Both the position numbers and the translations under genes were made by a program. The notes under the pieces were generated by a model. That model did no database searches, was not told the origin of the DNA, and saw nothing but the letters and a program-made list of their open reading frames with translations. Shown piece by piece: positions 3,096-26,656 of a DNA stretch of 64,000 bases (its first letter is position 1; each line of letters starts with the position of its first letter). The stretch is from Octopus vulgaris (lineage: Eukaryota), in NCBI GenBank assembly GCA_951406725.2, contig OX597816.1, positions 111,476,001 to 111,540,000 on the forward strand, in the 5' to 3' direction.

Positions 3096-3155
<60 letters not shown>

Positions 3156-3160
<5 letters not shown>

Positions 3161-3379
3161 GTAATATATGTGACAATTATTCGGTTGCCATAACAAGACT
3201 CTGAGTTTTGGATGTCGGAGCAGAAACCTCTGGCATCTTGTCAGTTATAGAACCAATCAAAAAGTGCATTTTCGATTGCCTCTATAACTGTCCAGATGCC
3301 AGAGGTTTCCACCCCAAAATCCAAAAGTCGGAGTCTTATCATGGCAACCAAATAATTGTCACATATTATATTACAGATA
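3156..3379. mobile_element. Palindromic (foldback) element in (TA)n
   Basis: tctgtaata-tatgtgacaattattcggttgccat...gaaacctctggcatct pairs with agatgccagaggtttc...atggcaaccaaataattgtcacata-ttatattacaga. Centre near 3265. Confidence 0.8.
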
Positions 3380-3654
3380 AATTCTTCTATTTACATAATA
3401 TCGAGGTCTCATTCATTCTTTTTTTGTCTTACCAATACTATTAATATATATATATATATATATATATAATAATAAATATTAGGGAATAAATCCAAATTTA
3501 CAGGGAAAATCAGATTTAGGATTGAATCCAATTTTATAGTAAAATATTATATAATATTAATTAGAGACAAAACCACTATTTTGCAAATCAAACAAAGAAA
3601 GACTTAATCCAATACATAAAAAAATTTTAATATAAATTAAATAAAATTATATTC

Positions 3655-3700
3655 GCACTACAATTGTTTCATGTCTCTTCTCAGGACATTCATCAGGTGG
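3655..3700 (-). ncRNA. Minimal type I hammerhead ribozyme (minus-strand copy)
   Basis: Reverse complement reads cCAC CTGATGA ATGTC ctgagaaga GACAT GAAA CAATTG TA GTGc. Stem I is reduced to 3 bp. Confidence 0.75.
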
Positions 3701-3800
3701 ATTTCAGATCTAAAAATAAATTGATAAATTTATATTATTTATAGTTTTAGTCATTTTAAATTTATATCTTAAAAATATTGATTATTTTTAGATCTGAAAT

Positions 3801-3846
3801 CCACCTGATGAATGTCCTGAGAAGAGACATGAAACAATTGTAGTGG
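3801..3846 (+). ncRNA. Minimal type I hammerhead ribozyme
   Basis: CCAC-CTGATGA-ATGTC-ctgagaaga-GACAT-GAAA-CAATTG-TA-GTGG. Stem I CCAC/GTGG, stem II ATGTC/GACAT, palindromic stem III, GUA triplet (cleavage after 3842). Confidence 0.85.
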
Positions 3847-4025
3847 CAAATATAATTTTATTTAATTTATATTAAAATTTTTATGTATTGGATTAAGTCT
3901 TTCTTTGTTTGATTTGCAAAATAGTGGTTTTGTCTCTAATTAATATTATATATATATATATATATATACACAAATAAATGAAAGAATGGAGTTGAACGAC
4001 GAATTAACAAAATTCCTTTATTTTA

Positions 4026-4106
4026 TTTTCGACATATGTTTTGAAGACTATATTCCTAATTTCGAAGGAATAAGGGGTGCATTATGCCGCCTTCTCCTCA
4101 GGAAAA
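4026..4106 (-). ncRNA. Hammerhead ribozyme copy with core mutation (probably inactive)
   Basis: Reverse complement reads TTTTC CTGAGGA GAAGGC...GTCTTC AAAA CATATG TC GAAAA. The GAAA core has become AAAA. Confidence 0.65.
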
Positions 4107-4230
4107 GTAAGGAACTTATGTCAGCATCAAGATGCACAAAAACAATCGGAAACCAACACCAATTCTCCAACACAGAAATACTCCCTTTAATGTAAATGGT
4201 AACACTCTGAACTATTCTAAGTAAAAAAAA

Positions 4231-5212
4231 AACTATATCTAGTTTGTCATTCCTTTCGGGAAACAAATCACGTCTAACCCCCCTTTACAGTTCCGTGAAG
4301 CCGTAGCCAGAAACTTTCCCAGAAATTCTAGGTATTACTCTACTATTATCTCGCATAAGGTAAAGATTGCATTCTCCAATACTAGAAATCTATCGCAGAT
4401 CATTGCCTTCCATAATAACAAGCTGCTAAATAAGGACTCATCACCGGGGAGTAGCGACACTGCCCTTACCAATTCCAACCAAACATACAATAATAATAAT
4501 AATAGAAATAGTATTGATAATAGCAACATTCATAGCAGTGTTGGCATTAACAATAGTAATATTAATAACAATATTAGTCGGATTATTAACAGTGGTAGTG
4601 TTAGTGGTAATAACGACAGCATTTATAATAACAGTGATAGTATTGATGATAACAACCCCAGCATTCCTATAGTCAGGGAAATTACCGACGATAGTACAAT
4701 TAATAGTAATGATAATAATATGAATAGTATTGTGGTCAATGCTAGCAATAATATTAACACCAATCATAACAATAAAAACTCCGTCTTAGTCTCGGACGTA
4801 AAACCCTAACAGATTAAAATTCTTATCCAGCAATTCCAAAATTAGAAATTCCATTTGCCAGTGCAAAATTTCTTCCGGTACCGATGTCTTCTTCTACATA
4901 GGGGCAACTACTTCCAAATTAGCTCACAGGATCTCCAACCATTATTCAACTTTCCGAGATAAGAGAAAACAACACAGCACAGGACTAAGTAAAATAGTTT
5001 GGCGTCTTAAGGACAGTAATACAACTTACAAGCTGGAATGGTCCATATTGTCTATATCCTTTCCGTTTGATAAAGGCAGAAAATTTTGTGGCGTCTGTAA
5101 TTCCGAACTTTTCCATATTTTATTCGCCAAAGTCCCTTTAATAAATACAATGGTCGAGAAATCCTATAGATGCATGCACTGGCAAAAACACACCTTTCAC
5201 TCATATGAATAA
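4231..5212 (+). pseudogene. Penelope-like ORF C-terminus: post-RT region, Asn-rich linker, GIY-YIG endonuclease
   Basis: Hand translation: NYI*FVIPFGKQITSNPP...NFPRNSRYYSTIISHKVKIAFSNTRNLSQIIAFHNNKLL, then an N-rich tract, a +1 shift at ~4801, then NSICQCKISSGTDVFFYIGATTSKLAHRISNHYSTFRDKRKQHSTGLSKIVWRLKDSNTTYKLEWSIL...FCGVCNSE...LIN...RCMHWQKH*. Confidence 0.85.
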
Positions 5213-5776
5213 TGATTAATATAGATAACCTCCTTGAATTTTAATAATATAGTCCCATTTATATATCACCCCCATAGTCAATTTTTGTACTCTTAAAGGA
5301 CTACTACCCAACCCATGGGGGTGTGTTTTTACCTTTGTCTCTCTAACTCGCCCTCCTCTCTCTCTCTTTCCCTCTCTCTATCGTAAGCACAATCAAACAC
5401 ACAGACACAAACCTGTCACTTCACAATTGTCTGTTTTTTGGCATCTACCCTTCCACACACACAATCACGCACACACATACACACACACATAGCCATTAAT
5501 GCAGTTATATACACACACATAGGCACTCATTCACAAAAGAAAACAACAATATCACCATTCATTTGACCTGCACCCTTTTACCTTCCTATTCTTAGGTCTC
5601 TCTCCTCCATCCTTGTTTGAACCCTTGAACCTTCTAGAATCTTCTACATTCAACCATTTTTGACGTCACTGTTTATAACGGAATATTTTAAAGAAACACT
5701 CATTATCACTATGGGCACCATGCGGGCAGTCATCTAAAAGTTTTTGTGCATCTTGATGCTGACATAAGTTCCTTAC

Positions 5777-5859
5777 TTTTCCTGATGAGAAGGCGACATA
5801 ATGCACCCTTTATTCCTTCGAAATTAGGAATATGCAGCCTTCGAAACATATGTCGAAAA
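5777..5859 (+). ncRNA. Type I hammerhead ribozyme with extended stem II loop
   Basis: TTTTC-CTGATGA-GAAGGC-[42 nt including TATTCCT/AGGAATA hairpin]-GCCTTC-GAAA-CATATG-TC-GAAAA. GUC triplet, cleavage after 5854. Confidence 0.85.
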
Positions 5860-6061
5860 TAAAATAAAGGAATTTTGTTAATTCGTCGTTCAACTCCATT
5901 CTTTAATTTATTTGTATTTAAAAAACACTCAAATTTCCACACGATAGCACGTGATCTCTGCCCTAGGCATGTAGCTTCAACCGTGTGTTTCTGACGTGAA
6001 TTTGCTACCCAGGTATCAGTTAACCAAATTATCCATAATAAGATAATCCATTCAACTACTC

Positions 6062-24306: not shown

Positions 24307-24356
<50 letters not shown>

Positions 24357-24357
<1 letters not shown>

Positions 24358-24599
24358 CAATAACCTGCTTCCCTACTACCAATAACCTGCCTCCCTACTA
24401 CCAATAACCTGCCTCCCTACTACCAATAACCTGCCTCCTTACTAACCAATAACCTGCCTCCCTACTACCAATAACCTGCCTCCCTACTACCAATAACCTG
24501 CCTCCCTACAACCAATAACCTGCCTCCCTACTACCAATAACCTGCCTCCCTACTACCAATAACCTGCCTCCCTACTACCAATAACCTGCCTCCCTACTA
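24357..24599 (+). repeat. 22-bp minisatellite x11 derived from the LINE 5' truncation point
   Basis: (ccaataacctgcctccctacta)x11. The last unit reads in frame PITCLPT-MFKAFTAVI into the RT. Confidence 0.95.
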
Positions 24600-26656
24600 T
24601 GTTCAAGGCATTTACTGCAGTGATATCGCAAAGGCTGAACAAGCACCTGGACGAAAACAAACTGTTCCCAGAAGAGCAGAAAGGATGCCGCAAGGGCTCA
24701 TATGGCTGTTAAAGATCAACTAATGATTAATAAAGCCGTAACTGAAGACAGCCACAGAAAGAAGAAAGGCCTCAGTATGGCCTGGATTGACTACAAAAAG
24801 GCGTTTGATAGCATCCCCCACACATGGATCCTCGAAACACTAGCCATTAACAAAGTAGCACCAACAATCATAAAATTCATAGAGCACTCTATGAATAAAT
24901 GGCAAACAGTCCTACACCTCCAAACAAAAGAGGGACTCATGAAAACCAAAGACATCCCCATTAGAAGAGGAATATTCCAGGGAGACACGCTCTCTCCACT
25001 CCTTTTCTGCTTGGCACTGTCACCTCTATCTGATATGCTAAATAGAACTGGATGCGGATATAAATGTTACGGCAAAACGATCAGCCACCTTTTATATATG
25101 GATGACCTAAAACTATACGCTGCAAATGACAAACAGCTGGAAACACTATTAAAGACAGTTCATGGATTTACCAAAGAAATAGATATGAAATTTGGATTAG
25201 AAAAATGCGCCAAAGTAACCATGAAAAGAGGAAAACTAGTTAAGAGTAACAACATCACACTAGATAAAACCAATGAAATAAAAGAATTAGACCAAAGCCA
25301 AACTTACAAATACTTAGGAATCCATGAACTAGATAAGACACAACACACACAAATGAAAGAGAAAATAAAAAAAGAATATTATAGACGAGTTAGATCAATA
25401 CTAAAAACAGAGCTCAATGCTAAAAACAAGATAATAGGTATCAACACTTTAGCTGTCCCAGTTATAAGTTACAGCTACAATATCCTTAACTGGACACGAA
25501 ATGAACTGTCCAAAATAGATAGGAAAACAAGAAAAATACTGACAGGATCTAGGATGCATCACCCAAAATCTGACATAGAAAGACTATATATACAACGTAT
25601 AGAAGGTGGTAGAGGCCTTATACAGCTGGGAAACTACTATAAAATAACCACCATAGGACTGCAAAAATACCTACTTCAGAAGGAAGGAAAACTGATCCAG
25701 ATAGCAGCAAAACACGAGCAAAACAAAAAACTGTTCTCAGTATTTAAGGAAGCTGACAAATACAAACAAGAAATCATACCACCTAATAAACACAAAGAAG
25801 AAGAAGAAGATGATGAAGAAACAACAAAAGCTATAAAACAAATGAAATCCAAACTAAAAATAGAACAGCAACGAGCCATGATAAAATGATGACAAGAAAA
25901 ACCCCTTCATGGTTAATACTGCACTAAACTAAACGCAAAAGAAATAGACAAAGAAAAATCCCAGCAATGGTTGAGAAGCTCAGGACTCAAAGCAGAAACA
26001 GAGGGATTTTTAATTGCAGCACAAGACCAAAGCCTCCCCACCAGAAATTACCAAAAACATGTAATGAAAAGAAATATTACAAGTAACTGCAGAATATGTG
26101 GAGACGGACAAGAAACAATAAATCATATTATCTCTAGCTGCCCAGTCCTGGCTAAGAAGGAATATATTCACAGACATGACAGAGTTGGAACCTACATACA
26201 TTGGAAGCTATGCCAACATTATGGAATAACAACAGAAAAAAGATGGTATAGGCACACACCAGAAAAGGTCACAGAAAACGAGAAAGCAACCATACTCTGG
26301 GATATGCCGATACACACAGATAGAGAAATTAAGGCCAACAGACCAGATATAGTTGTCAGAGATCATGAAGAAAAAAATGCTTTCTAATTGATGTATCAAT
26401 ACCGGCAGATGACAACGTGTCTCTAAAAGAAATGGAGAAACTCTCAAAATACAAAGACCTGGAAATAGAGGTAACTAGAATGTGGAACCTGAAAACAGAA
26501 ACAATTCATATCATAGTAGGTGCATTAGGCATGATAAACAAATTTTCAGACAAATACATAACAAAAACACCAGGACTTACAAACACATATAACATACAGA
26601 AAATTGCACTACTAGGCACTGCACACATCCTACGCAGAACACTTTCCATACAATAA
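24578..26656 (+). pseudogene. Disrupted RT-CCHC-REL endonuclease ORF
   Basis: Frameshifts near 24710 and ~26375, stops at ~25887-25916. Pieces correspond to track ORFs 24702-25889, 25971-26387 and 26417-26656. Confidence 0.9.

What the first reader, a model, noticed from the sequence alone, without database searches (positions are those of the whole stretch)
3472..3952. ORF-less mini Penelope element: inverted pseudo-LTRs each with a minimal hammerhead ribozyme
Seen: ~170-bp inverted arms around a ~62-bp spacer. Each arm has CTGATGA / stem II ATGTC-GACAT / GAAA / CAATTG / TA, closed by CCAC-GTGG on +. Established: Penelope-like elements carry minimal type I hammerheads with palindromic stem III, thought to cleave as dimers. 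Inference: a ~480-bp non-autonomous, ribozyme-bearing (retrozyme-like) unit. A transcript from either strand would carry one ribozyme that can be sequestered by its own antisense arm.
Basis: partly seen in the sequence, partly recalled or inferred. Interest (0 to 1): 0.75.

Follow-up and report, generated by a model that had tools for sequence, protein, structure and literature searches.

The report
Truncated two-ended Penelope retrotransposon insertion
This 480-base mirror-image sequence is a one-off, likely dead insertion of two back-to-back ends of a known kind of jumping gene, each end carrying a predicted self-cutting RNA motif; its sister copies come with and without an intron, a likely clue to why such genes keep their introns.

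Summary
The arms and both hammerhead motifs are real. The element is not a separate non-autonomous family. It is a 5'-truncated, head-to-head insertion of two pseudo-LTR ends of an ORF-bearing Penelope-like element (PLE) with Hydra-clade motifs, sitting in a (TA)n repeat. Its inner junction occurs once in the genome. The 62-bp 'spacer' is the 3' end of a ~1.1-kb GT-AG intron whose acceptor lies 9 nt before the ribozyme. This layout, including opposite-strand hammerhead pairs, is in print. The sister copies add something. Of 83 parsed young insertions, 57 carry the exact spliced junction and 26 keep the intron. Spliced arms stop within 35 nt of the donor (77 of 78), often with an extra G. A second donor joins the same acceptor in 4 loci. 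Head-to-head pairs never mix splice states (0 of 25). Copies that read through the ORF keep the upstream intron (19 of 20). This favours sense-RNA templates over the published antisense idea and suggests spliced products are dead ends. The scan reached a similar spliced fold-back reading before on other DNA (e1-9506236). Cleavage and RNA-level splicing are untested.

The parts
3445..3467 (.). (TA)n target repeat, left flank
   Evidence: sequence; 127 of 136 outer ends of parsed sister insertions abut TA repeats
3468..3547 (-). 'tail' extension of the pseudo-LTR, on the left arm only; in tandem parent copies it ends about 58 nt before the ORF's ATG
3548..3709 (-). left arm: pseudo-LTR exon 2, from the splice acceptor to the 'arm end'
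3655..3700 (-). left minimal type I hammerhead motif; 1-nt loss leaves a 3-bp stem I; predicted cut after 3659
3710..3719 (-). last 10 nt of the pseudo-LTR intron, on the left arm
   Evidence: L001 - arm, U10
3720..3791 (+). last 72 nt of the ~1.1-kb intron (the 62-nt 'spacer' plus 10 nt), ending in the acceptor AG at 3790-3791; the unique inner junction lies at 3719/3720
3792..3952 (+). right arm: pseudo-LTR exon 2 without tail
3801..3846 (+). right minimal type I hammerhead motif (stem I 4 bp, stem II 5 bp, palindromic stem III); predicted cut after 3842
3953..3968 (.). (TA)n target repeat, right flank

Best explanation
The element is a single, 5'-truncated, head-to-head insertion of two pseudo-LTR ends of an ORF-bearing Penelope-like retrotransposon with Hydra-clade motifs, likely made when both ends of a cut (TA)n site primed reverse transcription on an unspliced sense RNA. 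SHOWN: spacer, arm and tail are contiguous parent sequence; the spacer is an intron 3' end; the junction is unique; the parent has an ORF with RT and GIY-YIG-type motifs. INFERRED (about 0.6): one DNA end primed at the tail end, the other about 76 nt upstream at the arm end; both cDNAs crossed the hammerhead and the acceptor, stopped 10 and 72 nt into the intron, and were joined. INFERRED: the copy is a dead end (no ORF, no exon 1), and any transcript across it would fold into a ~170-bp hairpin that buries the ribozyme. The same process on the spliced, likely capped message gives the commoner 400-450-bp sister copies. Confidence in the identity alone is about 0.95; the figure below includes the priming mechanism.
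For: Parent: tandem copies L076 and L078 read pLTR-tail-ORF-3'UTR-exon 1-intron-pLTR, unit about 5.55 kb. Intron: donor GTATGT in 11 of the 12 donor contexts that the script listed (GTGTGT in one), length 1078-1144 nt in three copies; a second donor (GTAAGT) is joined to the same acceptor in 6 of 18 pattern matches, in 4 loci. Architecture: 56 of 83 parsed insertions are head-to-head pairs; 51 of 56 have one tailed and one untailed arm. In 17 of those 51, the window included, the untailed arm reaches more than 10 nt further in than the tailed arm, so each arm holds sequence the other lacks; 21 are the reverse, 13 within 10 nt (two long pairs assigned by hand). Splice state agrees in 25 of 25 classifiable pairs, 21 spliced and 4 unspliced. 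Literature: in vitro a Poseidon PLE cuts and extends both target strands and starts at two internal sites that define the tail (PMC11167929); inverted 5'-truncated copy plus one-sided tail is the typical PLE layout (PMC8557442).
Against: Fold-back of one cDNA followed by trimming at the arm end would give the same pairs and explains the splice-state agreement directly; a 16-nt TA-rich palindrome straddles the arm end. No Pfam or PDB hit names the parent's RT; the two database homologues are unnamed; the assignment rests on motifs compared by eye with published Hydra proteins. No intact full-length ORF was seen; L076's is frameshifted, and it belongs to a more diverged subfamily (exon 2 about 87% identical to a young copy). 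The two-start-site result comes from a different PLE clade. No RNA evidence was obtained.
Confidence: 0.7

Rival explanations
1. Same parent, but the inverted arm is made by fold-back: one cDNA primed at the tail end snaps back on itself, the hairpin is completed, and one arm is trimmed at the TA-rich arm end before or during insertion.
For: No mixed splice states (0 of 25). Palindromic or microhomologous inner junctions in several copies such as L004, L008, L011. Arms of one locus differ less than arms of different loci (mean 1.8 against a median of about 4.2 substitutions, 26 pairs). PMC8557442 attributes the tail to endonuclease resolution of an intermediate.
Against: Plain fold-back cannot give the 17 of 51 pairs in which each arm has sequence the other lacks; it needs the extra trimming step. 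Of 27 solo copies, 12 end at the arm end and 14 at the tail end, as two start sites predict. Unrelated filler DNA lies between the arms in L043 and L089.
Confidence: 0.22
2. One reading: a non-autonomous, retrozyme-like mini-element that is mobilised as a 480-bp unit.
For: Short head-to-head copies with the same outer ends are common (18 examined; 56 of 83), and the tail-end 25-mer has 3792 exact matches.
Against: Junction unique; inner junctions differ between loci; no direct tandem of ribozyme units; both ribozymes are predicted buried in a hairpin of about -261 kcal/mol; an ORF-bearing parent supplies every base.
Confidence: 0.04
3. Self-priming on an antisense RNA template makes the head-to-head arrangement and explains intron retention (hypothesis in PMC3846280).
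For: The window copy itself is unspliced, so taken alone it fits. Palindromic junctions occur.
Against: 21 of 25 classifiable pairs are spliced in both arms. Spliced and unspliced copies both occur in each of three loop-II subfamilies, and the exon-1 marker travels with the subfamily, so splicing recurred. Spliced arms end near one point, and 10 of 15 arms that end there carry a non-genomic G against 14 of 62 other arms (Fisher p = 0.002). That such a G comes from the cap is recalled knowledge, and some of these G could come from the partner arm.
Confidence: 0.04

Closest known systems
Hydra-clade endonuclease-bearing Penelope-like elements, e.g. Hydra-1_Obim (Craig et al. 2021, PMC8557442; section 11 and passages of supplementary file 1 read)
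   Same: C-terminal GIY-YIG-type domain, DKT, CxCx5C linker, CxxC and CxH motifs, no CCHH pair, (TA)n targets, hammerhead downstream of the ORF whose stem II also opens with an A-U pair.
   Different: A different family from Hydra-1_Obim by eye (different N-terminus and ribozyme). KWK in place of RWK. Unit about 5.55 kb because of a ~2.7-kb intron-bearing region after the ORF, against <3 kb described. Clear pseudo-LTRs, which that table says Hydra-1_Obim lacks. An Asn-rich insert in the ORF.
Dual opposite-strand minimal hammerheads of truncated PLEs; Drosophila virilis Penelope (Cervera and de la Pena 2014, PMC4209133, parts 1-2 of 4 read; Schostak 2008, PMC2377424, passages)
   Same: Pairs of minimal hammerheads 100-700 bp apart on opposite strands are described there as truncated PLEs. 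The Penelope intron ends at the 5' side of helix I and starts 46 nt after the transcription start; here 9 nt before stem I and about 27 nt after the inferred start.
   Different: Intron about 1.1 kb against 75 bp; a second donor; A-U or a mismatch in place of the conserved G10.1-C11.1 pair; here most young genomic copies are spliced, which the passages I read do not report.
Metazoan non-LTR retrozymes (bioRxiv 10.64898/2026.07.22.740005, part 1 of 5 and passages read)
   Same: Non-coding, type I hammerhead, related to PLE pseudo-LTRs.
   Different: Retrozymes are direct tandem repeats with a ribozyme in each unit; this is an inverted pair with a unique junction and a coding parent.
Poseidon element PAc (Frangieh et al. 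2024, PMC11167929, parts 1-2 of 4 read)
   Same: Two alternative 3' ends that define a tail; AT-rich targets.
   Different: Different clade; tail about 76-80 nt against 30-40 nt; here both ends lie upstream of the ORF's ATG, not inside the ORF.

Membership tests
EN+ Penelope-like element insertion | pseudo-LTR formed by partial tandem around one ORF in the parent | tested here: met
   L076, L078
EN+ Penelope-like element insertion | inverted 5'-truncated copy plus tail on one end | tested here: met
   window; 51 of 56 pairs
EN+ Penelope-like element insertion | parent ORF with RT followed by GIY-YIG endonuclease | tested here: met
   RT motifs and VY..YIG..R..H read from L076 as it stands; tblastn to the window's neighbouring protein at E ~1e-21, whose Pfam GIY-YIG hit is below the curated cut-off (E 0.004). 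No profile hit for the RT.
EN+ Penelope-like element insertion | target-site duplication | tested here: inconclusive
   both flanks are (TA)n, so a duplication cannot be told apart
Hydra clade | DKT motif, CxCx5C linker, CxxC and CxH around the catalytic E/N, no CCHH, no GxKF/Y | tested here: met
   against the definition; GxKF/Y searched only in the N-terminal piece
Hydra clade | RWK motif | tested here: inconclusive
   RIKWK in L076; RWR in the two homologues
Hydra clade | (TA)n insertion preference | tested here: met
   127 of 136 outer ends
Hydra clade | short element, generally <3 kb | tested here: not met
   unspliced unit about 5.55 kb; the form spliced at the second donor is 2.98 kb. 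The paper gives this as general, not diagnostic.
Hydra clade | placement in an RT phylogeny | not tested
   reference sequences were seen only as text in a supplement
Minimal type I hammerhead ribozyme | core CUGANGA, GAAA, NUH with stems I and II | tested here: met
   core invariant except position 7 in 18 selected variants; 95.7% of cells paired
Minimal type I hammerhead ribozyme | palindromic stem III allowing a dimer | tested here: met
   cofold gives the dimer at -24.2 against 2 x -7.9 kcal/mol; A-U to G-C double change in 4 of 18 rows, all one subfamily, so probably one event
Minimal type I hammerhead ribozyme | conserved G10.1-C11.1 pair | tested here: not met
   A-U in 8, U-A in 1, unpaired in 9 of 18 rows; the published Hydra-1_Obim motif also has A-U
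Minimal type I hammerhead ribozyme | self-cleavage | not testable with these tools
   needs an in vitro assay
Non-LTR retrozyme | direct tandem units each with a hammerhead | tested here: not met
   inverted pair, single unique junction
Spliceosomal intron | GT..AG ends and precisely joined exons | tested here: met
   joined forms seen as genomic copies only
Spliceosomal intron | spliced junction in RNA reads | not tested
   no reads were laid

The most novel reading that the evidence does not exclude
The copies of this family are a genomic record that PLE reverse transcriptase copies sense RNA in three splice states, and that intron retention is a filter, not an avoidance of splicing. Starts inside the 5' leader of the capped, spliced message give tiny ORF-less copies. 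Splicing from the second donor removes exon 1 and the likely promoter. Only unspliced RNA rebuilds a promoter-ORF tandem. [quoted passage not shown]
Probability: 0.5. Interest if true: 0.65.

Novelty: new member of a known kind. Interest (0 to 1): 0.4.

Why it matters
The element itself is ordinary PLE debris and should not be catalogued as a new retrozyme. Its family matters more. How PLEs keep introns is called unknown in PMC8557442, and PMC3846280 leaves open antisense against unspliced sense templates. Here a long intron with two donors marks the template of each insertion. That turns the question into counts that can be repeated in any assembly, and gives exact coordinates (start site, two donors, one acceptor, two cDNA start points) for RNA and in vitro tests.

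Tried and rejected
Rfam scan: no hammerhead family among 68 matches; the miRNA hits reflect hairpins and microsatellites. My first clade call, Neptune, was dropped after reading the Hydra definition. My first model, that only the downstream intron is kept while the upstream one is spliced in the same RNA, was rejected: 0 of 20 ORF-start copies with an upstream core show the spliced leader, 19 keep the intron and 1 uses the second donor; 10 of the 30 loci had no core that my pattern found. L110 shows the first donor spliced with about 400 nt of upstream sequence, an exception to the short-leader rule. L092 looked mixed but its junction is explained by the partner arm and was left unclassified. 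L090 gave no BLAST parse and was dropped from the counts. Sequencing runs: no RNA holder listed; no reads were laid, so there is no evidence on expression. Pfam, PDB and the protein atlas did not name the parent RT. Six literature searches showed no paper reporting abundant spliced genomic PLE copies; Arkhipova 2003 (PubMed 12524543) is not held and may bear on this, as may subscription papers and supplements I did not read.

Full report
1. Observation. The arms 3548-3719 and 3782-3952 are 97.7% complementary around a 62-nt spacer. Each carries a hammerhead core (3805 on +, 3696 on -). The + copy has a 4-bp stem I, a 5-bp stem II and an 8-nt palindrome at stem III; two copies cofold into the dimer at -24.2 kcal/mol, while the monomer's best fold is not the active one. 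The - copy has lost one base of stem I. The left arm has an extra 76-80-nt tail, and both ends abut (TA)n. Folding the whole element on either strand gives one hairpin of about -261 kcal/mol that pairs the ribozyme with its antisense arm. Rfam gave no hammerhead hit.

2. It is a fragment, not a unit. The window lies in a 2.8-Gb genome, G000. In 9 of the 20 longer loci, spacer sequence, arm and tail follow each other on one strand, so all three are parent sequence. The exact inner junction matches once, at the window. Following the parent upstream reaches tandem copies L076 and L078: pseudo-LTR, tail, ORF, about 2.7 kb of non-coding DNA, pseudo-LTR. The ORF, frameshifted in L076, shows RT motifs, an Asn-rich insert, a CxCx5C linker, a GIY-YIG-type core, CxxC and CxH. 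These match the definition of the Hydra clade (PMC8557442 section 11) and, by eye, the Hydra proteins in its supplement. No profile search names the RT, and no tree was built. The tail-end 25-mer has 3792 exact matches; it may be shared by related families.

3. The spacer is an intron end. Long copies read exon 1, GT, 1078-1144 nt, AG, then 9 nt to stem I. Many short copies join exon 1 to exon 2 exactly. A pattern that accepts both forms has 114 matches. The first 100 listed fall in 84 insertions; 83 were parsed: 57 spliced, 26 unspliced. This sample covers only young subfamilies with an exact match. A second donor, about 185 nt after the ORF's stop, is joined to the same acceptor in 6 of 18 matches (4 loci) and unspliced in 12. 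Two donors meeting one acceptor make chance deletion unlikely (inference). The window copy is of the unspliced kind, with 10 and 72 nt of intron.

4. What the sister copies show. (a) 77 of 78 spliced arms extend at most 35 nt upstream of the donor; the commonest length is 27 nt (15 arms), at an initiator-like site (the initiator label is recalled). Ten of those 15 are preceded by a G that the parent does not have there, against 14 of 62 other arms (p = 0.002). I read this as run-off at a capped 5' end; part of the G could be supplied by the partner arm. (b) Each of three loop-II subfamilies has both forms (31/12, 33/13 and 14/5 spliced/unspliced arms), and the exon-1 marker follows the subfamily in 68 of 72 scored arms. 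So splicing recurred and is not one ancestral loss. (c) 56 of 83 insertions are head-to-head; 51 of 56 have one tailed and one untailed arm. (d) 25 pairs can be classed in both arms: 21 spliced, 4 unspliced, none mixed. Independent templates would give 43% mixed (P about 8e-7), or 27% on the arm frequencies within these pairs (P about 4e-4, worked by hand); templates from one cell state need not be independent. (e) Of 30 loci holding the ORF start, 20 show an upstream ribozyme core: 19 keep the intron, 1 uses the second donor, none has the spliced leader.

5. Mechanism. Best reading: both ends of a cut (TA)n site prime on the same pseudo-LTR of one sense RNA, one at the tail end and one at the arm end, and the two cDNAs are joined head to head. 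In the window each arm holds sequence the other lacks (tail on the left, 62 nt more intron on the right); 17 of 51 pairs are like this, which plain fold-back cannot make. The in vitro behaviour of a Poseidon element agrees (PMC11167929). Fold-back with trimming at the TA-rich arm end remains open and explains point (d) directly. The antisense-template idea (PMC3846280) fits the window alone but not the spliced pairs. For intron retention: spliced-leader copies start upstream of the ATG and so hold no ORF; second-donor copies lose exon 1 and the likely promoter; long copies come from unspliced RNA. The promoter's place is inferred, not mapped; in Drosophila Penelope it is internal (PMC2377424).

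6. Ribozyme. In 18 selected variants the core is invariant apart from position 7, loop II varies, and stem III keeps its palindrome through one double change. Most stem pairs never vary and so say little. The pair closing stem II is A-U here and broken in half of the rows, unlike the conserved G-C of the published consensus. Activity is untested; published minimal hammerheads cleave weakly.

7. What is known. Opposite-strand hammerhead pairs 100-700 bp apart were already described as truncated PLEs, and the Penelope intron was already mapped to the 5' side of helix I (PMC4209133). Inverted truncated copies with a one-sided tail are the standard layout (PMC8557442). I found no paper reporting abundant spliced genomic copies in six searches; the 2003 intron paper was not available. 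The scan's notes hold a similar spliced fold-back reading from another genome (e1-9506236); my reading was on record before I saw it, and a repeat by another agent is not independent evidence.

8. Verdict. Real feature, known kind, new family member. Interest 0.4, carried by the family-level splice record and not by the 480-bp element.

Noticed in passing
window 3970-5915: A second, different PLE-type insertion right beside the finding, with the same layout at larger size: inverted end 3970-4143 and direct end 5740-5915 (95% identical), hammerhead cores at 4101 (-) and 5782 (+), an Asn-rich ORF piece 4243-4809 and a GIY-YIG-like piece 4802-5212.
   Followed up: partly
L180/L181/L186 (G000:C10:100769016-100772214): [quoted passage not shown] The two direct copies differ at 4 of 405 positions. 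Fits a spliced multimeric transcript or a circular RNA template.
   Followed up: partly
L068:1135-5813 (G000:C1:206238600-206243300): A 38-bp unit that contains the second splice donor is amplified into a ~4.7-kb tandem array at the 5' end of a family copy.
   Followed up: no
L043:3600-3850 and L089:1555-1620: Unrelated filler DNA lies between the two inverted arms; its source was not traced.
   Followed up: no
L110:2440-3251: The only spliced arm with long upstream sequence (about 400 nt), paired with a short spliced arm.
   Followed up: partly
window 3133-3375: A separate imperfect inverted repeat of about 240 bp (81% identity) just left of the finding, next to a (TA)n run; possibly a small fold-back element.
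   Followed up: no
L040:2645-4742 (minus strand): Another Hydra-like ORF (495 + 222 aa pieces, about 35-39% identical to the parent) inserted next to a family copy.
   Followed up: partly
window 24355-24600: A 22-bp tandem repeat of about 11 copies.
   Followed up: no
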